From Escherichia coli phage vB_EcoS_Ace: 64,000 nt of DNA. The translations under genes were made by a program, and so were the position numbers. The stretch lies in sequence record MT833283.1; one strand, written 5' to 3'. A model generated the notes under the pieces. It saw only the letters and a list, made by a program, of their open reading frames with translations, searched no databases and was not told the origin of the DNA. Positions 7,194-58,910 of this stretch are shown here, piece by piece; within the stretch, counting starts at the first letter, position 1, and the number at the start of each line of letters is the position of its first letter.

Positions 7194-7955
7194 TTACACC
7201 TTCCCCATATCCTTAAAGATATCGTAGAATGCTTTAGACTCTGGTGAGCGAACGTTGTCGATCAGTTCGATCATAGAGAAAGGAGAGTTTTCATACTTCT
7301 CATAGACTTCCATAAGAAGTGCTAGACCTGAATCACCCTTGATGTCTTTCTGAGCTATATCTCCACAGATAATTAAACGACAATCTTGTCCTACACGAGT
7401 CAAAAGACAGATCATTGCTTCAACGGAGATATTCTGAGCTTCATCGACAATTACATAGGAGTTGTTGAAAGTTCGGCCACGGGCATGTTCGATAGCCAGG
7501 AATTTGATTTTCTGACGTTCGACATATCCTTTGTAGGCATGATCACCGATTGCCCATTTCATACCATCGGCTATTGGTTCCAACCAAGGCTCTAGCTTTT
7601 CTGCTAGATCACCTGGGAGCATACCAAGAGATTTACCTAGAGGTTCGTTCGGACGCACGAGGATCACTTGCTCAATATCTGAGTGAATGTCTACGAGTTC
7701 CTGAGCTGCAAGAACGGATGGAATAAAGGTTTTACCAGTACCTGGTTCACCTATACCCACAGTCACTGTGTTGTTCTTGATCATATTGATATATGATTTT
7801 TGCTCACGGTTTTTACCAACTAGGGATTTAGCAACTGGATTGGCGTAATCACCAGAGAAATCTGCTTGAATTACGTTACTCTCGTACTTGTTGCCACGCT
7901 TTCTTGAACCATTGCGGTTCTCTCTTTTTTGACGTGCTTTTCCCATAAATAACAC
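7194..7955 (-). CDS. phoH: PhoH-like ATPase
   Basis: 253 aa; Walker A GEPGTGKTF and the conserved PhoH core that follows. Confidence 0.85.
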   Translation of the reverse strand: MLFMGKARQKRENRNGSRKRGNKYESNVIQADFSGDYANPVAKSLVGKNREQKSYINMIKNNTVTVGIGEPGTGKTFIPSVLAAQELVDIHSDIEQVILVRPNEPLGKSLGMLPGDLAEKLEPWLEPIADGMKWAIGDHAYKGYVERQKIKFLAIEHARGRTFNNSYVIVDEAQNISVEAMICLLTRVGQDCRLIICGDIAQKDIKGDSGLALLMEVYEKYENSPFSMIELIDNVRSPESKAFYDIFKDMGKV

Positions 7956-8240: not shown

Positions 8241-8269
8241 TTGACATCCGCCTTCGAATGAGTTATAAT
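8241..8269 (+). promoter_or_regulatory. Consensus sigma70 promoter TTGACA-N17-TATAAT upstream of nrdD
   Basis: Exact consensus -35 and -10 hexamers with 17-nt spacing, followed by GAAGGAGAG RBS and ATG at 8299. Confidence 0.7.
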
Positions 8270-8298: not shown

Positions 8299-10173
8299 AT
8301 GAATCGCAATGAAGAACTAAAGTATAAAGGAATGCAGTCCTTGATTCGAAACTGCAAAGAAATTATCGAAGGTTCAGCAGATGAAGAGCTGCTGTTTAAT
8401 AATGCCAATAAGCCCTCAGAACGTTTCCCTACACAAAGGGATATGCTTGCAGGGGAATTGAGTAAATATCTGATTCTGGAAGAAATGCCAATCCAGATTC
8501 GAAATGCTCACATGATTGGTGATATTCACTTCCATGATGCTGATTACGCTGCATTAGGTATGACTAACTGTTGCCTGGTTGCTTTGGAAGATATGTTGAA
8601 AAACGGTATGAAGGTTGGTAATGCTGAAATCAGTACGCCAAACTCCATTACTACTGCGGCTGCTATTACAGCTCAGATTATTACTCAGGTTAGCTCCCAT
8701 CAATATGGTGGTACTTCTGTAGACCGATTAGATGAAGTACTGGCTCCTTATGTTCGTAAGTCTTATGATAAGAATCATGCGTTTGCAAAACGTTGGACTA
8801 AGGATGAAGCCAAAGCATCTGTAATGGCTACGGAAATGACTGAGAAAGAAGTTTACGATGCCTGTCAGGGCCTGGAGTATGAAATCAATACGATGTTCAA
8901 CTCTAATGGTCAAAGTCCGTTTATTACCTTTGGGTTTGGTCTAGGAACTTCTTGGGAAGCACGTCTTGTACAGAAAGCAATCCTAGAAGTGCGTATGGAT
9001 GGTTTGGGTATCAATAAACGTACAGCTATCTTCCCTAAACTGGTATTTGTTTTGCGTGATGGCGTAAACATGAAACCTGGTGATGTTAACTATGATATCA
9101 AGAAGTTAGCTATGAAATGTACTGCTGAACGTATGTATCCTGACTACATCAGTTATGATAAGGTTGTAGAAGTTACGGGAGACTACAAAGTCTCTATGGG
9201 CTGTCGTTCATTCCTGGCTGCTGCGGAAGATGGTGAAACTTCTGGTCGTAACAACTTAGGCGTTGTTTCCGTAAACCTTCCTCGAATCGCTATCGAAGCG
9301 GAAGGAAATATTGATCTATTCTTCGATCTACTTGAGCTGCGTGTGGATACCGCGTTAAAAGCATTGGAGTGGAGGGTTGATCGCTTAAAATACATTCAAG
9401 CTAAAGCTGCGCCCATCCTCTATATGTCAGGAGCCTTTGGATTACGTCTGGGGCCAGATGAATATGTATTTGATCATTTCTACAAGCGTGCTTCCGTATC
9501 TCTAGGATATATTGGTTGCCACGAAATGTTGCAGCTCATGTTTGGTAAAGATGTAGATACAATGTCTGAGTCTTGTATCAAGTTCGTTCAACGTGTGCTA
9601 CAATATATGCGTGATCGTGCTGATCAGAAGAAGGAAGAGACTCAGTTAGGTTATAGTCTGTATGCTACACCATCTGAATCTCTGTGTGATCGCTTCTGTC
9701 GTCTAGACCGTGAGTACTTCCCAGAGCATGAGGATATTCTGGCTAAAGGATATTACACTAACTCCCATCACCTTGATGTAGAACGTAAGGTTGCTCCAAA
9801 TGTGAAATTTGATTATGAGTCTAACTTTACTCCTATTGCTTCTGGTGGGTGCATTTCCTACGTGGAATTACCTGACATGAAGAAATTCCCAGATGCCCTA
9901 GAATGGGTAATTAACTATGCTGCAAGTAAAGTTCACTACTTTGGTATTAATACTCCAGTTGATTCTTGTGGTGAGTGTGGATTCTTAGGCGAAACAATTG
10001 CTTCTGAAGATGGATTTAAATGCCCAATTTGTGGCAACCATGATCCTGAGACTCTTGAGGTAACACGTCGTGTTTGTGGGTACCTTGGTAATCCAGGTGC
10101 ACGCCCATTTAACCCAGGTAAACAGCATGAGGTTATGGGACGAATCAAGCATGCAGATGTAAGAGCTAAATAA
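8299..10173 (+). CDS. nrdD: Anaerobic ribonucleoside-triphosphate reductase (class III)
   Basis: 624 aa; C-terminal Zn ribbon CGECG..CPICG and glycyl-radical motif RVCGYLG. Confidence 0.9.
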   Translation: MNRNEELKYKGMQSLIRNCKEIIEGSADEELLFNNANKPSERFPTQRDMLAGELSKYLILEEMPIQIRNAHMIGDIHFHDADYAALGMTNCCLVALEDMLKNGMKVGNAEISTPNSITTAAAITAQIITQVSSHQYGGTSVDRLDEVLAPYVRKSYDKNHAFAKRWTKDEAKASVMATEMTEKEVYDACQGLEYEINTMFNSNGQSPFITFGFGLGTSWEARLVQKAILEVRMDGLGINKRTAIFPKLVFVLRDGVNMKPGDVNYDIKKLAMKCTAERMYPDYISYDKVVEVTGDYKVSMGCRSFLAAAEDGETSGRNNLGVVSVNLPRIAIEAEGNIDLFFDLLELRVDTALKALEWRVDRLKYIQAKAAPILYMSGAFGLRLGPDEYVFDHFYKRASVSLGYIGCHEMLQLMFGKDVDTMSESCIKFVQRVLQYMRDRADQKKEETQLGYSLYATPSESLCDRFCRLDREYFPEHEDILAKGYYTNSHHLDVERKVAPNVKFDYESNFTPIASGGCISYVELPDMKKFPDALEWVINYAASKVHYFGINTPVDSCGECGFLGETIASEDGFKCPICGNHDPETLEVTRRVCGYLGNPGARPFNPGKQHEVMGRIKHADVRAK

Positions 10174-34931: not shown

Positions 34932-34936
34932 TAATA

Positions 34937-34970
34937 AACCCCAGTGGACAATCCACTGGGGTTTTCTTTT
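34937..34970. terminator. Bidirectional terminator at the convergence of early and late gene blocks
   Basis: CCCCAGTGG-ACAAT-CCACTGGGG hairpin with an A-run upstream and T-run downstream. Confidence 0.65.
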
Positions 34971-42330: not shown

Positions 42331-45180
42331 TTAAATAGATGCCCAATCCACAGATTGCTCGCCATTATCACCTTCTGCTCTTATACGGAAGCGTAACTTC
42401 CTATTAATACCTAGAGCATCCTCGTTATGAAGAGCATAGTCTGCCTTATTGTATATCAGTAGATAATCGTAGACATACTGATCTTCAATTCGTACACTTC
42501 TTAATAAACGATCTAGGTTATCGTAGATTTCGAGAGTGTAGAAGATTCCATCAATGATATCTTCTTCTGGAATTCTATCCCAGGCCAACTTAACGTCTGG
42601 TCCTACAAACTCCGATGCATCTCCTGAAGCTGTATTAGTAACCCTGAAATTACTAACGACGCTTAAGTTTTTAGCAGAGTTAAGTTCTACCGATAGTGTT
42701 ACAGGAGAACTTCGTCTACCATTAATATCTACAGCTCTAATCTCAAAGACTGCTAAACCAGCAGGTTCTCCAATAATTTCTTGGATCATTCGTAGATTTG
42801 GATTAGTTTCTAATTGCTGTACGATGTAAGGATCAGCATGTCCAGAATGAACAATGGAGTAGTAAACAACGTTATTAGTTAAGCTAGGAAGCCAAGATAA
42901 CTCACCATTCTTACCAATAGATCCTACTTGTCCACCCGGTGTTGGTGTATACATAAAGTCTCTAGGAGGCAGTACATTATTACTAACATCAGGGATATCG
43001 TTACCACTATTATCAACCTGCTCGGAGTTAATGAATACATCCTCACCATACTCTTGCAGTGTAATATTAATCTTACCTTCTCTAGAGTTTTCAACCTCAT
43101 CAACTAGGAAGTATTTCTTATTCCAACCATAACGACCATATGTAAAAGCAATCGGATCGTTAGGCTCAATGCCTATGAAATGATATGGTAATGAGAATGT
43201 GAGAGTTCGTGAGTAACGAGACTTTTTCAGTTCTCTATCTGCAAAGCTACGTGCAGTATAGTAGTTAGTGATATTTGCAAAAGAAAGCTGAAGTTTTTTA
43301 TCTAATCCTTTATCTTGTTCCTTAAATATAGAGTTAAAGAATGTAATGGAGTTAGTCTTCCAGCTTAATGCAGGATCTAATATGGAGGCTTGTACTGAGT
43401 TGAACTTATTTCTACCTGTGGTATCTGATAGCTCCAAATCACCGTAGGTATCTAAGAAGTCAATCTCTAATGGGGTGTTTGAGAACTTCTCAACAGTTAT
43501 TCTATATTGACCAGATAAGTTGTTGATAGCACCACCATAAGACTCTATTAATCCCTGCACGTTTTTAAATACTGACTCAGAGGTATCGAGAATAGTGTTC
43601 ATTTGAACTATTTGTCTATTCTCTCCTACAGCATCAGTCCATCCAACGTATCTCCAATAGGGTTGCCAAGAAACCTGGTAGGATTCATCAATGATATCCA
43701 AAATAGCTGCTTCTTGAATAAGTTGCTGGAGTGGGAACTGATCGATAGTGATATTAGCACCGTAGCGATCAGAGGTTAGGTAGTCCAGAGTTTGCCATAT
43801 ACCATTTAAGCTGGTCTTATCAGCAGTTACTCTACCATCTGAATGATAGATCTTAATCTTCTTACCTTGAACTTCAGCACTAACTTCTGGAATTTCTGTT
43901 CTGTTTTCATTAATAGTAAAGCGAACGATAGCATAAGCAGTATCTAACAGTTTATAACGAGAGTCCCAGTATTCCGGTCCATTCTCATTCATGTTCTGTA
44001 GATAGAAACCTTTCTCTTTTGCAATGTTAACTAGAACATCAGCAGCAGATTGATCAGCCTTACCATGATAAGTCCAGATACGGATATCGCCATTACCATC
44101 ATTATACTTATATTCCTGTCCATGAATAGAAGGTTCAGAGCTTGGTTGACCAGAAGCAATACGTTGCATGGTATCACCAGCTACTTTCTTAGTACCAAAA
44201 CAAGTACGAGACTTACTATCATTAGGATCAATACAGATCATTGGTACATCACCAAAGTAGAAATCTAGAAATCCATCAATCTCACCCTCACAGAAAGCGT
44301 ATACTACATATACGATATTAGGGTTATGCAGTTCAGTATCTGCAAATACTGGGATTCCAGGAATTTTCTGAACTCCGTATACTACTGGAAGGAATTTAGC
44401 TGCTAAGTTAAAATCAAGATCTACTTCCTTAGTTACAGTCTCATAGTATTTCTTTAGGCTATAGCTTCTAGAAAGACCAAATAACTTTTTCTTAGATTGT
44501 AACTTATAACGTTCTTCCTGAACCTGATACTTAGCAAGAATAGAAATACTCTTGTTAGCGTGGAAGAATCCGTAGTCCTCTTGATATTCAGGTCGTTTAG
44601 CACCATTAGATGGAACTAATTGGCCAGCAACAATCTCAAGTCCCCTATGGTCAGCATCATCTGTGAAACGTCCGTTTACTCTATCAAAGTCATAGAATTG
44701 GTTTGAACAGTTCCATGTAATAACAGATGTACTAACTCCAGAAGTACCAATGTTATCCTTAATACCACCACCAGTGATTTTACCACGGAAGTAAAGTAAA
44801 GGACCATTAGTGTCTGGATCTACAGGAAGAATGTTACCTTCTTCATCAATAACCGCTTGATGGATTGAGATGGATCTATCTAGGAAGGATACACCATTTT
44901 GGACTAGTTTTAATACTTCATCTTCAGCAGTACCTGTGATAGTAAAAGAAAGGCTACCAATGGAAAGTTTTCTATTTTGTTTATGTGTTGTTATAGACTT
45001 AACTTTACCAGATGTGTAAAGAATACCATTATAAATTACATCCCTAAAATAGTCTGTAAGATAAATGTACGCAGAACTTGATCCGGTAGAGCTTGGCAAT
45101 TCAAGAGTAATAAGGCATGCAGTTTTTATTTTATTATTGGTTCTTAAATACTCTCTTGCACTGTCAAGAATTTTCTTCAT
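42331..45180 (-). CDS. Baseplate hub protein pb3-like
   Basis: 949 aa (the length recalled for T5 pb3); position after the Dit-like gene. Confidence 0.6.
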   Translation of the reverse strand: MKKILDSAREYLRTNNKIKTACLITLELPSSTGSSSAYIYLTDYFRDVIYNGILYTSGKVKSITTHKQNRKLSIGSLSFTITGTAEDEVLKLVQNGVSFLDRSISIHQAVIDEEGNILPVDPDTNGPLLYFRGKITGGGIKDNIGTSGVSTSVITWNCSNQFYDFDRVNGRFTDDADHRGLEIVAGQLVPSNGAKRPEYQEDYGFFHANKSISILAKYQVQEERYKLQSKKKLFGLSRSYSLKKYYETVTKEVDLDFNLAAKFLPVVYGVQKIPGIPVFADTELHNPNIVYVVYAFCEGEIDGFLDFYFGDVPMICIDPNDSKSRTCFGTKKVAGDTMQRIASGQPSSEPSIHGQEYKYNDGNGDIRIWTYHGKADQSAADVLVNIAKEKGFYLQNMNENGPEYWDSRYKLLDTAYAIVRFTINENRTEIPEVSAEVQGKKIKIYHSDGRVTADKTSLNGIWQTLDYLTSDRYGANITIDQFPLQQLIQEAAILDIIDESYQVSWQPYWRYVGWTDAVGENRQIVQMNTILDTSESVFKNVQGLIESYGGAINNLSGQYRITVEKFSNTPLEIDFLDTYGDLELSDTTGRNKFNSVQASILDPALSWKTNSITFFNSIFKEQDKGLDKKLQLSFANITNYYTARSFADRELKKSRYSRTLTFSLPYHFIGIEPNDPIAFTYGRYGWNKKYFLVDEVENSREGKINITLQEYGEDVFINSEQVDNSGNDIPDVSNNVLPPRDFMYTPTPGGQVGSIGKNGELSWLPSLTNNVVYYSIVHSGHADPYIVQQLETNPNLRMIQEIIGEPAGLAVFEIRAVDINGRRSSPVTLSVELNSAKNLSVVSNFRVTNTASGDASEFVGPDVKLAWDRIPEEDIIDGIFYTLEIYDNLDRLLRSVRIEDQYVYDYLLIYNKADYALHNEDALGINRKLRFRIRAEGDNGEQSVDWASI

Positions 45181-45791
45181 AGACTTTCCCTCAAGGAAAG
45201 TGAAATACCAGTATATGTACCATTACTATTTAACGTAGAGCCAAAACTGTCTCCGTTCATTAATTTAGTTCTAAACAGAATACCATTAAATACCGGTTTC
45301 TCACTACCCGTAGTAGTAATGAATAGATCAGGATAAACACTTATATTCCAAGTATTTCCTGCTGTGTTGATAGAAGTGATTTTATACACTTTTGGATGGT
45401 TGGACAATTTAAATAAATCGCCTGGTTTAGGCAGTCCACGAAGTGTACCTTTAGTGTCCATAATAACTGTTGAACCTTTTTGTCCAGCAGGAATATTTAC
45501 AGCACTAGTATCACCACGAACTCGGAAAGCTTCATATTGTGGTAATAACACATCAATATAGCTACCTGTTCTTTTATAATCTAGAATGAATGAGTCTAAT
45601 TTAGCAAATTCATCTGGGAATAATTCTGGATAAGAGATATTAATACCCCAATATTGAGCAGACACCTTAACCTCCCTAACTTTACCATTAGGTAATTCAT
45701 CACGAATCATAGGGTCATTGTCTACTAAGTTAACGCTTTCAAAACCTAACCCTGATAGCTCTGGGTTCGTGTATGGGTCTGGTAGTCTCAT
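45177..45791 (-). CDS. Distal tail protein (Dit, pb9-like)
   Basis: 204 aa, between tape-measure and hub genes; AAGAGGAG RBS. Confidence 0.55.
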   Translation of the reverse strand: MRLPDPYTNPELSGLGFESVNLVDNDPMIRDELPNGKVREVKVSAQYWGINISYPELFPDEFAKLDSFILDYKRTGSYIDVLLPQYEAFRVRGDTSAVNIPAGQKGSTVIMDTKGTLRGLPKPGDLFKLSNHPKVYKITSINTAGNTWNISVYPDLFITTTGSEKPVFNGILFRTKLMNGDSFGSTLNSNGTYTGISLSLRESL

Positions 45792-45817
45792 AGTTAATTT
45801 CTCCTCTTAATAACAAT

Positions 45818-45846
45818 ATTATAATAGGATTGGAAAATTTTATCAA
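45818..45846 (-). promoter_or_regulatory. Consensus-like sigma70 promoter (TTGATA-N17-TATAAT) inside the tail gene block
   Basis: Reverse strand TTGATA, 17-nt spacer, TATAAT, then AAGAGGAG RBS and the Dit ATG. Confidence 0.45.
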
Positions 45847-45868
45847 GAAATTTTTATTTTTCCATAAA

Positions 45869-45897
45869 GAAAAGGAGGACTTTATGTCCTCCTCCAG
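45869..45897 (-). terminator. Hairpin (terminator/attenuator candidate) downstream of the tape-measure gene
   Basis: GGAGGAC-ATAAA-GTCCTCC stem-loop followed by a T-rich run on the minus strand. Confidence 0.45.
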
Positions 45898-45899
45898 TA

Positions 45900-48800
45900 T
45901 TAAGAATTACCAAGTGATTTCAGGGTGGTTCCATTCTCATTAAGAGCCTGTTCCACGGCATCCCTGAAAGCAGCACTGTTGCTCGAAGCAAAGTCTCGGA
46001 AGCTAGCCGCATCCATCGTACTGATGTTCAGCACAATAGGTCTACCCGATGTACCCTTTGAAGATCCTTTGAGTTCATCAGTAGGAGTAGCCTTCATCGG
46101 AACCATAGGAGTGATTACTTCGGTACCATGCTCACCCATCTGGTAACTAACTCCAGGATACATATTACCACCTTCTGCACGAGGTACGAAAGAGTTAGCA
46201 TTACCAATCCCTTGATCACCTCGAATATAAGAAAGTTCTCCTGCGTTAGCCGACATAGAAACGTCTACGTTCTTCTGGCGCTCTCCAAGAGTTAAGTAAC
46301 CAGCTGTCTCAGCACCAGAGTCCCCAATAGAAGACATACCAGATGCAGAGGATGCTTGAGCAAGAGCCATAGCACCTGCTAAACCAGCCGCAACCATCAG
46401 AGGAATAGAGAATGGATACGGAACAGCTGTTGCTGCCTGCATCACCGCTACTGCCGTCTGGATAATGATTTGCTTCTTAGCCGCATCTTGCTGGATCTTG
46501 AGCTTTTCAGCCTCTAACTTCTTGATCTTAGCTTTGGATTGCTCAGATTTACCATCACGTTTCTGTTCTGCTGCAATAGCTGCATCAATAGCACTTACCT
46601 GTTGACCAACACTATACTGAATCATTGAAGATACAGTTTGCATACCCGCCGCTACTAGAGAAGTGGTATCCAGAGATCCTTGAGAGAACTGGATCATAGC
46701 GTTAGTTAGGTTACCCATGCTTTGTGCTACAGCAGTTGCTTCGGAGTTCAGCTCAGACAGCTTAGAAATAGCCTGGTCGTAAGATGCCATTCTATTCTGC
46801 ATATCTGCGAAGTTTTTATCTTCTCCAGTTAATCCAGTAGTAGGAGTATACGTAGCCCCTACAGCTGCACCTACAGAAGACTGCATTTCTGCATCACGCT
46901 GTACTCTTAGAGCCGCAAGCTGGGCTCTAGTTTCTGCTAGCTTTTTGTTATATTCTAGCTGAGCAGCAGCATTCCCTAAAGTTTTTTGCTTAAGGTCTTC
47001 GAATAACTGGATTTGCTCCTTGATACGTTCCGCAGCTCCCATTAAAGGATTTGCAGTAAATTTTCTTTGTTGCTCCTCCTCCCTGCCAGCAGCCATTTCC
47101 CTTTGCTGATCCTGACGGAATTTCCATATTTCACGTTCAATTTGTGCCTGAGCACGTCTTGATTGTTCAGCTTCCTTATGCTTATCAACCTGTTTGGAGT
47201 ACCATTCATACTTTTCTTTCTCGACAGTCAGTTCAAGGTTCAACTGAGCTAAACGATATTGAGTATCTGTCATAGTACGGTTATTCAGGAGAGCAATTTC
47301 ACGATCAACACCAAGAATCTTATCGGTATAATCCTTAACCTTCTTCTGAGCTTCCATACCCTGGTTAGTGATCTTGATACGTTCTAACTGAATCTTAGCT
47401 ATCTCACCTTCGATTGCTTTGTTACCCTTGTTAGTTTCTAGGACACGCTTAAGAGCTGCTTCCTGTTCTTCTAACTGTTGGATTTCCAGACGTCTACCAG
47501 CTTCCTGTGCTTTCTCTTTGTCCTTAGTCTGGTTATACACTTCGGCAATCTTCTGCTGAACTTCTAACTGATTCTTAGTTTCATTACCGGTTAGTTTTAC
47601 ATAACCAGCAAGAGCTTGTGAAGCAGTCTTCATCTCACTAAGGGTATTATATCCTAAGTTCAGGCTCTTAACATACTCATCAGCATTTTTACCAGTACCA
47701 GCAGAAAGAGACTCAATAGTCTTAATCGTATCTGATAGGGATGCACTAGTTTTAGCCGCAGTATTAGTATTCTGAGCAATGTTCTGGATATCGTTAGCTA
47801 AATCACTAGCAGTTTTCTTAGCCTGATCATATGCTTTCTGCTGTTCTGTCAGTCCTTTCAGAGTTGCGGAGTTAAAGTCATAAACCGCATCAGGGTCATT
47901 CATATCCTTCTGCAGATTAATCTGCTTCTGAAATTCTGGAGTAGCCTTAGCAGCCGCAGCACCAGCAGCTTGATATGCAGATTTCCATGCACCTAAGTTA
48001 TCGGTTGAATCAGTAACTTCCTTATCCAAACGTTCTACTTGGAGTGCCATAGCCGCAGTTTCAGCTACGAACTTCTTGTTTTCCTCCGAAGCACCAAGAG
48101 CCGCAGCACTTACCGGAACACCTTGAGCTACAGAACGAATTGCACCTGCGGTAAAGAAGTCAGCCTGTTCCATACGCTTGTCTAGATCAGCTTTTAACTT
48201 ATTACGCTTTTCTAGAGATTCTTTATACATATCAAGCGCTTTATTATATCCTTCCTCAGAAGCGGAAAGACTTAAAGCTACAGCACCAACATTAGTTGGG
48301 TCAATCTGACGGTTAGTTTCTTCCTGTGCTCTAGCAGCAGAAGCCGAGATAGATGCTTGAGAAGTATAGAATACTGCGTTGATAGAATCAATTACCGGCC
48401 CTAAATACTTAGCAGCAGCCTGTTGAACCTTTCTCAGGGCAGCATCAGCATTAGCAGCAAACTGTTCCCATGGAGTTGCACGAAGTACGTCATCCAAGTA
48501 GCCGAAACGTTTAGTAGATTCAGCGATTACTGCGTTAGCATATGCTTGTTGCTTTTGGAAAGTGGAAAGACTATTGACGTTATACGTAATACCTGTGTTA
48601 GCAGCATTTAACTGTTTAACGTAGTCAGCGTAAGCATCATTAAGACGAATAGTAACACCAAGTTCGTCCAGAAGTTCGATTTCTTGTTTGGATACACCCT
48701 TGATTACACGGTTAAGTGCATCAGTCATATCAACACCAAGAACAGCAGCAGCACGACGAGCTACTAGACCAAATTTATTAAGTTGTTCAGCATCAAATCC

Positions 48801-49580
48801 ATATGCGGAAGCAGAGGATGCTTGTCTCATTGCTTCTTCGAAGGAGATTGCATAACCAGCAGCCTCTTGTAGAGATCTAGCTAGAGTTTGTACCGGAGTA
48901 CCTGTTTGAGTACCAACAATAGTACCAAACTTCTCAAGACGGTTTAACTGGTCACCCATCTTAAGTTGTTCGAATGCAGATTGTAGAACGAACACGTTAG
49001 ATGCGATAGCAGCGTACATAAGAGGTAAACCACCACCCACTTTAGCCATAGCTGCAAAGTCACGAGTTGCACCACGTGCTGAACCAGAAGTATTACCAAT
49101 TGCACGACTAGCACGTCCTGCAGCGGTAGTTGTATCATTAAAGCCTCTAGCAGTATTACCTAGTGCTCGGTTAGTATCATATAATCTATCTTGAACTTTT
49201 TCAGTTGCAGCAGCTACATCGTTACCCATCGCCTTAACAGATTTACCAACGTGTGTAAATCCAGACTCTAGCTTATCGGATACCTCGATCATAGCAATAG
49301 CAAGGTCATCTAACTTAGCACCAATACTATCCATAGATTTGGTGATACCAGTCATGCCTCTACTAGCCTGCATTTTAGTTAGACTTTTAGCTGCTCTATC
49401 CGCCGCCCTCTCAATGGAGTAAAGAGTTTTGGGCATTTTTCCTAACTGCTCATTAGTCAGTTCGGAAGCGGCAGCAGCATTTTCTAACGCATCGGAAACG
49501 TTCTCAATAGATTTTGCAGTACGGGTTGCCCCTTTCTGCTTTACATCTATAAGTAGTTCTCGTATTAGCTTATCAGTCAT
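45900..49580 (-). CDS. Tail tape measure protein (pb2-like)
   Basis: 1226 aa; long Ala/Gln/Lys-rich coiled-coil, hydrophobic segments near the C-terminus (IIIQTAVAVMQAATAV..MVAAGLAGAMALA) and a Gly-rich C-terminal domain. Confidence 0.8.
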   Translation of the reverse strand: MTDKLIRELLIDVKQKGATRTAKSIENVSDALENAAAASELTNEQLGKMPKTLYSIERAADRAAKSLTKMQASRGMTGITKSMDSIGAKLDDLAIAMIEVSDKLESGFTHVGKSVKAMGNDVAAATEKVQDRLYDTNRALGNTARGFNDTTTAAGRASRAIGNTSGSARGATRDFAAMAKVGGGLPLMYAAIASNVFVLQSAFEQLKMGDQLNRLEKFGTIVGTQTGTPVQTLARSLQEAAGYAISFEEAMRQASSASAYGFDAEQLNKFGLVARRAAAVLGVDMTDALNRVIKGVSKQEIELLDELGVTIRLNDAYADYVKQLNAANTGITYNVNSLSTFQKQQAYANAVIAESTKRFGYLDDVLRATPWEQFAANADAALRKVQQAAAKYLGPVIDSINAVFYTSQASISASAARAQEETNRQIDPTNVGAVALSLSASEEGYNKALDMYKESLEKRNKLKADLDKRMEQADFFTAGAIRSVAQGVPVSAAALGASEENKKFVAETAAMALQVERLDKEVTDSTDNLGAWKSAYQAAGAAAAKATPEFQKQINLQKDMNDPDAVYDFNSATLKGLTEQQKAYDQAKKTASDLANDIQNIAQNTNTAAKTSASLSDTIKTIESLSAGTGKNADEYVKSLNLGYNTLSEMKTASQALAGYVKLTGNETKNQLEVQQKIAEVYNQTKDKEKAQEAGRRLEIQQLEEQEAALKRVLETNKGNKAIEGEIAKIQLERIKITNQGMEAQKKVKDYTDKILGVDREIALLNNRTMTDTQYRLAQLNLELTVEKEKYEWYSKQVDKHKEAEQSRRAQAQIEREIWKFRQDQQREMAAGREEEQQRKFTANPLMGAAERIKEQIQLFEDLKQKTLGNAAAQLEYNKKLAETRAQLAALRVQRDAEMQSSVGAAVGATYTPTTGLTGEDKNFADMQNRMASYDQAISKLSELNSEATAVAQSMGNLTNAMIQFSQGSLDTTSLVAAGMQTVSSMIQYSVGQQVSAIDAAIAAEQKRDGKSEQSKAKIKKLEAEKLKIQQDAAKKQIIIQTAVAVMQAATAVPYPFSIPLMVAAGLAGAMALAQASSASGMSSIGDSGAETAGYLTLGERQKNVDVSMSANAGELSYIRGDQGIGNANSFVPRAEGGNMYPGVSYQMGEHGTEVITPMVPMKATPTDELKGSSKGTSGRPIVLNISTMDAASFRDFASSNSAAFRDAVEQALNENGTTLKSLGNS

Positions 49581-49590
49581 TTATTTTTCC

Positions 49591-49625
49591 CAATAAAAAA
49601 GGCTCTGGGCAAATCACCCAGAGCC
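49591..49625 (-). terminator. Rho-independent terminator immediately upstream of the tape-measure start
   Basis: GGCTCTGGG-CAAATCAC-CCAGAGCC hairpin followed (minus strand) by TTTTTTATTGGGAAAAATAAATG. Confidence 0.55.
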
Positions 49626-49660
49626 AAGCCTCATCGTGGAACGCCCATTGGAGGAAACTT

Positions 49661-52831: not shown

Positions 52832-53317
52832 TTATCTGCGAAGTGCCCTACGAGGTGGCTGATACCTCACTGTTACATTTATTTCCGCTAAACCATATGG
52901 GGCCAGTAGACCCTCATCTGTAGCTACTGAGGTGATGCTCATATCAGTTGCCTCACATGGGAAGGTCGATCCATTAGGTTTACTAACAGTATATTCTAAA
53001 TTTCCACCTGTGTCAATGACGGTTTTTATGTCAGCTACGAGTTTTTCAAGTTGCTCTTGAATATCTGTTTTCTCTTTGTCATACACGAGGATTGGAAGTT
53101 CTAAAAACATCCACTGTTGGCCTGAGGGAAGATACTGCCCAGTTTCAGTTCCGATATGGACTGCCACATAAGGAAATTCTCGGATTTCCTCGAATTTATA
53201 AGTTTGACGAGAAACGTTTCCATAAAGGTTATTGAAATACTCGTCAGGTTGTGAACCATCCATTTGTGTGGCGATTCGGTCAACCACTGCTTGTGCAATA
53301 CTTGTTCTGTGATCCAT
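52832..53317 (-). CDS. Tail terminator-like protein (T5 p142-like)
   Basis: 161 aa; between head-tail joining genes and the tube gene. Confidence 0.45.
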   Translation of the reverse strand: MDHRTSIAQAVVDRIATQMDGSQPDEYFNNLYGNVSRQTYKFEEIREFPYVAVHIGTETGQYLPSGQQWMFLELPILVYDKEKTDIQEQLEKLVADIKTVIDTGGNLEYTVSKPNGSTFPCEATDMSITSVATDEGLLAPYGLAEINVTVRYQPPRRALRR

Positions 53318-57172: not shown

Positions 57173-58386
57173 TCTTTATCCCCATCGGTAGTGCCTTGCG
57201 GTCTACCACCTTCTTGACCAGATATACCTGTTGCAGAACCAGCAACGTTAGCAGGAATACGAATCTTATTCATCTGCTCATCATCTAAAGGTTCAAGGTT
57301 AAGCTCTTCACGAGCTTCGTTACCAGTCATGATACCGTTATTAACCAAAGAGGTTAAATGTTTAGCCTCAGCTTCTTTATCTGGCGTCAGTGCAGCTACT
57401 TCCTTAGTATTAGGAGTAACCTTGTAGCCAAAGAAGAAAGTAAGAGAACTAGTCAGCTTGTTCAGCATAGGAATGATAGTCATGTAATAGAACAATTCGA
57501 TGTTTGGTCGAATGTTAGCATTATTACCACCATCAAGTAACACTTGCGGAACACCAAAGGCAAGACAGATGGATTTATTAAATCCTTCGATATCTTCCTT
57601 GAAGTCTAGATCTTTAAAAGAGGATATTTGGGAGTACGGTTTTGCTTTCATACCACCATCTAGAATAAGGACAGTAGACTGACCCGTACTAGGATTATAA
57701 TCGAGTTGTAATTCTTCTTGTTTACGCTCACGCAATTTCTTGTTCAGGATTTCATCCGTCTCAAGAATAAGACCAATCACTGTGCCGTTATCGAGGAACT
57801 TCTCTTTAAAGTTAAGCATTTTAGAACGCTTCTCAAGAGAGTCAATAACTGTAGCAACACGAGATTGTCCAGAAATTTGGGAGTTTGTGCCACACACGTA
57901 ACTGTTATCCTTTATAAAGATAATCTCATCTACGCGATAGTCTATCTGGTTATTAAATATGAATTTTTTGATAAACTTATTGGCATCTGCCTCTACTTGC
58001 ATTAGTGCAGCAGGGACATGGTAAAGTGCTGTGCCATCCCAATAGATGTATGCACAACCCTCAAAAAGTAGGTCAGTGACTACAAGTCTACGGAATGTGC
58101 TTATATCCATGAATGGATTAGGTCGTACATTTAAGAGAGTGTCTAGAGTCTTTGCCTTGACGCCATTAGCGTACGTGACAATATTATATTTATCTCCGAC
58201 AGTATAAGAACACTCCGCCGCACTATCGATAACCATGTTAGCAGTTCGGTTGAGAATCTCAATCTTACTGTAGGCTTGTCCAGTGGTAAATGGCTTACGG
58301 TTAGTGCGATGACTAACTGGTTCCATGTCTCTTATAATACGTTGACCCGGATTTAGCTTTTCAGTAATCCAGCTTTTTAAACCCAT
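57169..58386 (-). CDS. Portal protein (pb7-like)
   Basis: 405 aa, between the terminase/HNH and decoration/protease genes; acidic Gly-rich C-terminus. Confidence 0.7.
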   Translation of the reverse strand: MGLKSWITEKLNPGQRIIRDMEPVSHRTNRKPFTTGQAYSKIEILNRTANMVIDSAAECSYTVGDKYNIVTYANGVKAKTLDTLLNVRPNPFMDISTFRRLVVTDLLFEGCAYIYWDGTALYHVPAALMQVEADANKFIKKFIFNNQIDYRVDEIIFIKDNSYVCGTNSQISGQSRVATVIDSLEKRSKMLNFKEKFLDNGTVIGLILETDEILNKKLRERKQEELQLDYNPSTGQSTVLILDGGMKAKPYSQISSFKDLDFKEDIEGFNKSICLAFGVPQVLLDGGNNANIRPNIELFYYMTIIPMLNKLTSSLTFFFGYKVTPNTKEVAALTPDKEAEAKHLTSLVNNGIMTGNEAREELNLEPLDDEQMNKIRIPANVAGSATGISGQEGGRPQGTTDGDKE

Positions 58387-58910
58387 TATAAGAACCTTGC
58401 GAATCCTGATTTAGTTTCAGTCTTGACTTGTGTCTTTTCTTGAGGATTCTGTAGCTTTTCCTTTTGTTTAAGAACCCATGCCTTCTGCTTATTAGCAGAG
58501 AAAAGGGGAGGTTCTTTAGTGTACACCTTATGTAATAGTTGGTGATGGTGGACACAAAGGGTAACAGTGTCATCTACTAGCTCATGCCTATATCTTTCAT
58601 AGAATGCCGTCCTATTTGAGAGGACTGTTTCTTCGTCAGTGAAATCCAATTGGAGTTCTTTAGCAAATTTTTTAACTAGTAGAGACACTGTATGGTAATG
58701 ATGAAGCTCTAATTCTTCACCACAACCACAGATTTCGCAGCGATCGGCTTTTTTATATTGACTTTTTATACCGTCTCGCATGAGTGATATAGCATCACGT
58801 TTATATTTTACATTTCCTGCCACAGTATTCTCCTCAACTGTATGAATATAGTATACATAATCATGTCGAATTTGTAAAGGGGATTTTAAAATGCAGGAAT
58901 GGGATACCAA
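58386..58910 (-). CDS. HNH endonuclease
   Basis: 174 aa; CEICGCGEELELHHYH ... CVHHHQLLH (Cys pairs with HH/H-N-H spacing). Confidence 0.7.
   Translation of the reverse strand: MVSHSCILKSPLQIRHDYVYYIHTVEENTVAGNVKYKRDAISLMRDGIKSQYKKADRCEICGCGEELELHHYHTVSLLVKKFAKELQLDFTDEETVLSNRTAFYERYRHELVDDTVTLCVHHHQLLHKVYTKEPPLFSANKQKAWVLKQKEKLQNPQEKTQVKTETKSGFARFL

What the first reader, a model, noticed from the sequence alone, without database searches (positions are those of the whole stretch)
45818..45897. Consensus-like sigma70 promoter and hairpin between tape-measure and Dit genes
On the coding strand, a hairpin after the tape-measure stop is followed by TTGATA-N17-TATAAT and a strong RBS before the Dit gene. 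T5-like late transcription is not thought to rely on consensus sigma70 promoters, so a near-perfect one here suggests either early/constitutive expression of the distal tail genes or an internal boost.
Basis: partly seen in the sequence, partly recalled or inferred. Interest (0 to 1): 0.45.

Follow-up and report, generated by a model that had tools for sequence, protein, structure and literature searches.

The report
Known T5 late promoter PG25 orthologue
The hairpin and near-consensus promoter between the tape-measure and Dit genes are real, but they match the terminator and late promoter PG25 of phage T5, which were mapped in 1985 and annotated in the T5 genome, so the feature is ordinary and already explained.

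Summary
On the minus (coding) strand, the tape-measure stop codon (45902-45900) is followed by four elements:
- a 10-pair hairpin with a U-tract (45895-45861)
- an A-rich block
- TTGATA-17-TATAAT (45846-45818)
- an AAGAGGAG ribosome-binding site 9 nt before the Dit ATG (45791)

The window is a T5-like phage, 99.8% identical to Escherichia phage GreteKellenberger. Two T5 GenBank records annotate the homologous gap. They mark it as the pb2 terminator plus "promoter P-G 25", citing Gentz & Bujard 1985.

The window differs from T5 PG25 by one spacer base. The intergenic module is 91-95% identical across Tequintavirus and Epseptimavirus, while the flanking coding DNA is 72-87% identical. Distant Demerecviridae of Erwinia, Pectobacterium, Klebsiella, Proteus and Vibrio keep a terminator followed by a sigma70-like promoter in the same gap, although the sequence itself has turned over.

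Published work states that all three T5 gene classes use sigma70 holoenzyme and that strong sigma70 promoters precede late genes. Primer extension in T5 shows that PG25 transcripts are late, so "early/constitutive" expression is contradicted. "Internal boost" (re-initiation after a terminator) fits the evidence.

Verdict: real, functional and already known; low interest.

The parts
45900..49580 (-). Tape-measure / pore-forming tail tip protein gene (pb2 orthologue, 1226 aa). Its stop codon TAA is at 45902-45900.
   Evidence: ORF list; PHROG 3779 tail length tape measure protein, E = 0; T5 D18-19 pb2 under the match.
45861..45895 (-). Intrinsic (Rho-independent) terminator. Stem GGAGGAGGAC/GTCCTCCTTT, loop ATAAA, U-rich tail TCTTTAT.
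   Evidence: Terminator scan; RNA fold -17.1 kcal/mol, z = -3.85; annotated as terminator at the same place in T5 records AY303686 and AY543070; stem invariant in A1.
45847..45863 (-). A/T-rich upstream block GGAAAAATAAAAATTTC, UP-element-like and invariant among T5-like phages.
   Evidence: Alignment A1, invariant columns. The UP-element role is inferred from established sigma70 promoter architecture.
45818..45846 (-). Core sigma70 promoter, orthologue of T5 PG25: -35 TTGATA (45846-45841), 17-nt spacer, -10 TATAAT (45823-45818).
   Evidence: Promoter scan, 11/12; shuffle tests; 'promoter P-G 25' annotated at the homologous position in AY543070; both hexamers invariant in 10 phages.
45811..45811 (-). 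Predicted transcription start (A, 7 nt downstream of the -10). This would give a 20-nt leader.
   Evidence: Inferred from spacing rules only; not measured here.
45801..45808 (-). Shine-Dalgarno AAGAGGAG, 9 nt upstream of the Dit ATG.
   Evidence: Read from the sequence; conserved in A1.
45177..45791 (-). Distal tail protein (Dit, pb9 orthologue, 204 aa), the first gene of the promoter's transcription unit.
   Evidence: ORF list; PHROG 1302 distal tail protein, E = 4e-66.
34936..34964 (.). 13-pair bidirectional hairpin at the convergent gene junction. It is the probable 3' end of the roughly 10.9-kb unit started at the PG25-like promoter (Dit, baseplate hub, pb4-like, 140-aa, 1020-aa and 588-aa genes).
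   Evidence: Terminator scan; ORF map. The extent of the unit is inferred.
49601..49625 (-). Upstream terminator between the tail assembly chaperone gene and the tape-measure gene, 20 nt before the tape-measure ATG with no promoter in between.
   Evidence: Terminator scan; homologous terminator annotated in T5.
52988..53016 (-). Orthologue of T5 late promoter PJ5 (TTGACA-17-TATACT), inside the tail-terminator gene and upstream of the major tail protein gene.
   Evidence: alignment with the annotated T5 'promoter P-J 5', identical across the core promoter.

Best explanation
The 108-nt gap between the tape-measure and Dit genes is a terminator-promoter module. It is the direct orthologue of the pb2 terminator and late promoter PG25 of bacteriophage T5.

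Proposed mechanism:
1. Transcripts coming from the upstream late promoter (the PJ5 orthologue at 53016-52988) are thinned at two intrinsic terminators, 49625-49601 and 45895-45861. This keeps the low-copy tape-measure protein scarce.
2. Host sigma70 RNA polymerase then re-initiates at TTGATA-17-TATAAT, probably at A45811.
3. The resulting transcript has a short leader with a strong Shine-Dalgarno sequence. It covers Dit, the baseplate hub, the pb4-like protein and the fibre genes, and probably runs to the bidirectional hairpin at about 34950.

The promoter needs no phage sigma factor. Its late timing in infection is imposed by a T5-type mechanism that is still unresolved.

What is shown here: the sequence elements, orthology to the annotated PG25, conservation, and non-random occurrence.
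What is taken from the literature on T5: sigma70 dependence and late kinetics.
What is inferred: the start site, the extent of the transcription unit, and the attenuation/stoichiometry role.
For: - The elements are present at the stated coordinates, and the hairpin is stable.
- Chance is excluded.
- AY303686 annotates the D18 terminator and the '-35 signal of promoter G25 (Gentz & Bujard 1985; M11609)'. AY543070 annotates 'promoter P-G 25' and a rho-independent terminator between pb2 and T5.139.
- The window differs from T5 in the core promoter by one spacer base.
- The intergenic region is 91-95% identical across Tequintavirus, against 72-87% for the flanking coding DNA.
- Seven more distant Demerecviridae, with Dit at 42-63% aa identity where measured, have a hairpin with U-tract followed by a 9-11/12 promoter in the same gap. 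Six of the seven reach their score in <=7% of shuffles, and four in <1%.
- Klimuk 2020 reports that all T5 classes use sigma70 holoenzyme and that PG25 and PJ5 primer-extension products appear late.
- No promoter lies between the upstream terminator and the tape-measure ATG.
Against: - No transcript data exist for this particular phage.
- Terminator efficiency is unknown, so the relative contributions of read-through and re-initiation are not established.
- The stoichiometry argument is weak. Dit, the hub and pb4 are also low-copy proteins (my knowledge of T5 tail composition), so it is unclear why a strong promoter is needed here.
- In sequence the promoter resembles the early-region promoters of the same window: it shares the AAAATT...TTG block and TATAAT-AT. 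Nothing visible in the sequence explains late timing.
Confidence: 0.9

Rival explanations
1. The promoter drives early or constitutive expression of the distal tail genes as soon as the second-step-transfer DNA enters the cell.
For: The element is a near-consensus sigma70 promoter that needs no phage factor in principle. It shares upstream and discriminator features with the early-region promoters in the same window. From my own knowledge, cloned PG25 is active in uninfected E. coli (Gentz & Bujard 1985; Deuschle et al. 1986); those papers are not held in the library.
Against: In T5 infection, primer-extension products from PG25 appear only at 30 min, together with PJ5. That is after the pre-early (15 min) and early (20 min) transcripts, and they then accumulate. 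The core promoter differs from T5 by one spacer base.
Confidence: 0.06
2. It is a chance sigma70-like match in AT-rich intergenic DNA. The Dit genes are expressed only by read-through from upstream.
For: The gap is 74% A+T, and weak promoter-like matches (>=9/12 or >=10/12) are no more frequent in the window than in shuffles.
Against: An 11/12 match arises in only 0.2-0.3% of shuffles of the gap. Both hexamers, the spacing and the upstream A-block are invariant in 10 phages whose flanking genes are 72-87% identical. The same architecture recurs after full sequence turnover in distant genera. A terminator lies directly upstream. The T5 orthologue is experimentally active.
Confidence: 0.02
3. 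The main function of the module is 3'-end formation and mRNA stabilisation for the tape-measure transcript, and the promoter contributes only a little to downstream expression.
For: The hairpin is strong and conserved. Terminator hairpins are known to protect 3' ends (established knowledge).
Against: If termination is efficient, the downstream genes need a promoter. The promoter is conserved at least as strictly as the hairpin, whose loop varies and is even inverted. PG25 transcripts are readily detected in T5.
Confidence: 0.1

Closest known systems
Bacteriophage T5 late promoter PG25 with the pb2 (D18) terminator (Gentz & Bujard 1985; annotated in AY303686 and AY543070)
   Same: The position is the same, between the pb2/tape-measure and pb9/Dit genes. 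The -35 TTGATA, 17-nt spacer, -10 TATAAT, upstream A-block, terminator stem and Shine-Dalgarno sequence are the same. 103 of 109 intergenic positions are identical.
   Different: One spacer base differs (ATCCTAT vs ATACTAT). There is one A fewer before the SD (ATTAAGAGG vs ATTAAAGAGG). The hairpin loop is the reverse complement (ATAAA vs TTTAT). The host phage belongs to the Epseptimavirus-like group rather than being T5 itself.
T5 late promoter PJ5 (upstream of the major tail protein gene)
   Same: It is a strong sigma70-type late promoter in the same late region, it is also conserved in the window (53016-52988), and it has the same late kinetics in T5.
   Different: PJ5 lies inside a coding sequence and has no terminator in front of it. 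Its hexamers differ (TTGACA/TATACT).
Terminator-promoter punctuation inside phage late or structural operons in general
   Same: An intrinsic terminator is followed within about 25 nt by a promoter, which resets transcript levels between structural gene blocks. A second such pair occurs in this window at 58928-58850.
   Different: This is a general design principle rather than a defined family. The comparison rests on inference.

Membership tests
Orthologue of T5 promoter PG25 | Located in the gap between the pb2 (tape measure) stop and the pb9 (Dit) start | tested here: met
   ORFs and PHROG hits; T5 annotations at the homologous place.
Orthologue of T5 promoter PG25 | Sequence homology to the annotated PG25 region | tested here: met
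   103/109 identical across the gap; hexamers and spacing identical; one spacer substitution.
Orthologue of T5 promoter PG25 | Late kinetics of the transcript during infection | not testable with these tools
   Shown only for T5 by primer extension (PMC7472727).
Sigma70-dependent promoter | -35 and -10 hexamers close to TTGACA/TATAAT with a 16-18 nt spacer | tested here: met
   TTGATA-17-TATAAT, 11/12; reached in 0.2-0.3% of shuffles.
Sigma70-dependent promoter | Correct orientation and distance to a downstream gene with an RBS | tested here: met
   The -10 ends 26 nt (45817-45792) before the Dit ATG; SD AAGAGGAG.
Sigma70-dependent promoter | Open-complex formation and initiation by sigma70 holoenzyme | not testable with these tools
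   Reported for T5 PG25: in vitro by Gentz & Bujard 1985, as cited in the GenBank note and by Klimuk 2020.
Intrinsic (Rho-independent) terminator | G+C-rich stem-loop directly followed by a U-tract, downstream of a stop codon | tested here: met
   10 pairs (5 G-C), 5-nt loop; the 3' arm ends in TTT and is followed by TCTTTAT; the hairpin starts 4 nt after the stop codon.
Intrinsic (Rho-independent) terminator | Structure conserved while the sequence diverges | tested here: met
   The gaps in My1, Klebsiella P5010, Vibrio Wyman/70E36-1/VCPH, Proteus Stubb and Erwinia KEY each fold into a different hairpin followed by a T-run.
Intrinsic (Rho-independent) terminator | Measured termination efficiency | not testable with these tools
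   No transcript 3'-end data are available.

The most novel reading that the evidence does not exclude
The terminator-then-strong-sigma70-promoter punctuation between the tape-measure and Dit genes may be an obligatory feature of the whole family Demerecviridae, not a T5 peculiarity. It persists in Escherichia/Salmonella, Erwinia, Pectobacterium, Klebsiella, Proteus and Vibrio phages through complete sequence turnover. In addition, the PG25-type promoter looks like the early promoters of the same genome in its upstream block and discriminator. The set of orthologous late promoters could therefore be used comparatively to find what actually distinguishes late from early sigma70 promoters in T5-like phages, a question Klimuk 2020 calls unresolved.
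Probability: 0.3. Interest if true: 0.35.

Novelty: already known. Interest (0 to 1): 0.1.

Why it matters
For annotation, the gap should be labelled 'pb2 terminator / late promoter PG25 orthologue'. The distal tail genes should be treated as a separate late transcription unit.

The finding does not challenge the current picture of T5 transcription. It illustrates that picture: host sigma70 RNA polymerase reads strong consensus-like promoters in all temporal classes, and timing is set by factors that are still poorly understood.

The one modestly useful by-product is the family-wide conservation of the module. That gives a comparative handle on the early/late discrimination problem.

The T5 version of this leader and RBS is also in everyday laboratory use. 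The 24-mer ATTAAAGAGGAGAAATTAACTATG occurs verbatim in 13 papers. My recollection, not verified here, is that it is the pQE-type 'RBSII', derived from PG25.

Tried and rejected
- Rfam scan of 45500-46200 at E <= 1: no RNA family. The hairpin is not part of a known structured RNA.
- Literature searches for T5 RNA-seq or TSS maps and for newer work on T5 late transcription returned nothing beyond Klimuk 2020.
- Gentz & Bujard 1985 (PMC214212) and GenBank M11609 are not held. The original PG25 sequence and its in vitro data are therefore cited only through the GenBank notes and Klimuk 2020.
- The supplement of Klimuk 2020 (Figure S5, the promoter alignment) is held as legends only.
- A search for 'RBSII' together with 'phage T5' found no paper.
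- I considered the overlapping weaker site TGGAAA-16-TAAAAT (45864-45837, 9/12). I set it aside as indistinguishable from background in AT-rich DNA.
- I considered a short plus-strand ORF created by the hairpin (GGAGGA...ATG at 45884). I rejected it as a by-product of the stem sequence and of the flipped loop.

Full report
**Observation**

The genes around the finding lie on the minus strand:
- a 1226-aa ORF at 45900..49580
- a 204-aa ORF at 45177..45791
- a 949-aa ORF at 42331..45180

PHROG profiles identify these as the tail length tape measure protein (E = 0), the distal tail protein (E = 4e-66) and a central fibre/baseplate hub protein.

Reading the minus strand, the 108-nt gap contains, in order:
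- the stop codon TAA (45902-45900)
- a hairpin GGAGGAGGAC-ATAAA-GTCCTCCTTT (45895-45871) followed by TCTTTAT
- an A-rich block GGAAAAATAAAAATTTC (45863-45847)
- TTGATA (45846-45841), a 17-nt spacer, and TATAAT (45823-45818)
- the Shine-Dalgarno sequence AAGAGGAG (45808-45801)
- after 9 more nucleotides, the Dit ATG (45791)

The consensus scan ranks this promoter-like site first in 40-52 kb, at 11 of 12 positions, and lists the hairpin as terminator-like. As RNA the hairpin folds at -17.1 kcal/mol, with z = -3.85 against shuffles. Only the RBS falls outside the given coordinates.

**Is it more than chance?**

Weak promoter-like matches are not enriched in this A+T-rich genome. There are 28 in the region against 33 expected, and 25 sites at >=10/12 against 27 expected in the window.

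Near-consensus sites are enriched: 7 at >=11/12 against 2.4 +/- 1.1. All 7 lie upstream of, and are oriented toward, a gene. Six are intergenic, and the seventh is the PJ5 orthologue, which sits inside the tail-terminator gene.

Shuffling the 108-nt gap itself produces an 11/12 site on the coding strand in 43 of 20000 trials and 13 of 5000 trials.

**What it is**

The window is a T5-like phage. A 1.3-kb query around the gap matches 442 phage records, and the best match is Escherichia phage GreteKellenberger at 99.8%.

Two GenBank records of T5 itself annotate the homologous gap:
- AY303686 marks a terminator after D18 (pb2) and the '-35 signal of promoter G25 (Gentz & Bujard 1985, J. Bacteriol. 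164:70-77; M11609)'.
- The complete genome AY543070 marks a 'putative rho-independent transcription terminator' at 92087-92113 and 'promoter P-G 25' at 92013-92087, between pb2 (T5.140) and T5.139, the Dit/pb9 gene.

I aligned the window with T5, EPS7, slur09, Gostya9, DT571/2, SP3, X5, APCEc03 and Erwinia phage KEY. Both hexamers and the upstream A-block are invariant. The spacing is 17 nt in all but KEY, where it is 16, and the stem is nearly invariant. The window differs from T5 PG25 by one spacer base, by one A before the SD, and by the hairpin loop.

The gap is 91-95% identical between the window and Tequintavirus members. The adjacent 200 nt of coding sequence are only 72-87% identical. 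The non-coding module is therefore under stronger constraint than the genes around it.

The second annotated T5 late promoter, PJ5, is also present in the window at 53016-52988. Its core is identical to T5.

**Depth of conservation**

A tblastn search with Dit finds 907 records across Demerecviridae. I fetched six distant genomes:
- Pectobacterium My1
- Klebsiella P5010
- Vibrio Wyman, 70E36-1 and VCPH
- Proteus Stubb

Their Dit proteins are 42-63% identical to the window's. All six, together with Erwinia KEY (fetched earlier), keep a 107-160-nt gap between the tape-measure and Dit genes.

The gap sequences are unrelated to the window's. Each one still begins with a stable hairpin followed by a T-run, and each then carries a sigma70-like promoter scoring 9-11 of 12. 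The observed score is reached in <1% of shuffles for KEY, P5010, Wyman and Stubb, in 2% for 70E36-1, in 7% for My1, and in 20% for VCPH.

The architecture, rather than the sequence, is what is conserved. This argues for function.

**How it works**

Klimuk et al. 2020 (PMC7472727) state that all three T5 temporal classes are transcribed by sigma70 holoenzyme, and that strong sigma70 promoters precede both early and late genes. Their multiplex primer extension on infected cells detected PG25 and PJ5 products from 30 min onward. These kept accumulating, whereas pre-early products peaked at 15 min and early products at 20 min. Loss of the RNAP-binding protein gpT5.026 lowered late transcripts about five-fold.

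On that basis the element in the window is a late promoter read by host sigma70 RNA polymerase.

The local layout suggests why it is there. A strong terminator-like hairpin (49625-49601) lies 20 nt before the tape-measure ATG, with no promoter between them. The tape-measure gene must therefore be expressed by read-through from the PJ5 unit. A second terminator follows the tape-measure gene, and the PG25-like promoter then restarts transcription for the following genes:
- Dit
- the hub
- the pb4-like protein
- the fibre genes

This unit probably ends at the 13-pair bidirectional hairpin at 34936-34964.

The predicted start is A45811, 7 nt after the -10. The start site, the extent of the unit and the dosage-setting role are inferences.

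The premise that late T5 transcription avoids consensus sigma70 promoters is contrary to the literature. Early or constitutive expression is contradicted by the T5 kinetics. Internal boost, or re-initiation, is the reading the anatomy supports. The proposed decisive experiment, TSS mapping over time, has already been done for the T5 orthologue with a positive, late result.

**What remains open**

Nothing in the sequence explains the late timing. The PG25-like promoter shares the AAAATT...TTG upstream frame and the TATAAT-AT start of the discriminator with the early-region promoters of the same window. Klimuk 2020 suggests that discriminator differences matter, but calls the mechanism unknown. 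This open question concerns T5 biology in general and is not specific to this locus.

**Verdict**

This is a real, functional and well-conserved terminator-promoter module. It is already known as the T5 pb2 terminator and late promoter PG25. Novelty: already known. Interest: low.

Noticed in passing
window 45881-45885 (-), compared with L002 (T5), L003 (EPS7) and L004 (slur09): The terminator loop is ATAAA in the window but TTTAT in T5, EPS7 and slur09. These are exact reverse complements, with identical stems. It looks like a small hairpin-loop inversion ('flip') polymorphism.
   Followed up: partly
window 8241-8269 (+) and 8189-8161 (-): A perfect 12/12 consensus promoter TTGACA-17-TATAAT lies 30 nt upstream of an NrdD-like anaerobic ribonucleotide reductase gene (8299-10173). 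A divergent 11/12 site (TTGCCA-17-TATAAT) faces a PhoH-like gene (7194-7955). My recollection of Gentz & Bujard 1985 is that both full consensus hexamers never occurred together in the strong T5 promoters they studied.
   Followed up: partly
window 20287, 24299, 28780, 28880 (+); 4451, 8189 (-): Early-region promoter-like sites share a common frame: AAAATTnnnn-TTGnnA, a 17-18-nt spacer, TATAAT, then mostly AT(A/T) (8189 continues CAC instead). The PG25-like late promoter shares much of this frame, so the sequence alone does not separate early from late.
   Followed up: partly
window 58928-58850 (-): There is a second terminator-then-promoter pair in the late region. A 13-pair hairpin (58928-58897) is followed by TTTACA-17-TATACT (58878-58850), upstream of the ORF 58386..58910(-) (174 aa from TTG; 131 aa from its first ATG at 58781).
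   Followed up: no
window 49581-49660 vs L002 4635-5445 (T5): T5 carries an extra 250-aa gene, T5.141 (annotated as similar to RB49 ORF239c), between the chaperone-gene terminator and pb2. The window lacks it, and the terminator sits 20 nt from the tape-measure ATG.
   Followed up: no
L002 9185-9213 (T5 leader); window 45812-45789 (-): The T5 PG25 leader and RBS, ATTAAAGAGGAGAAATTAACTATG, appears verbatim in 13 papers. The window's version has one A fewer. That this is the pQE-type vector 'RBSII' and that it was derived from PG25 are my recollections, not verified here.
   Followed up: partly
window 34936-34964: A 13-pair perfect palindromic hairpin with T-runs on both strands lies at the convergent junction of the late (minus) and plus-strand gene blocks. 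It is a likely bidirectional terminator.
   Followed up: no
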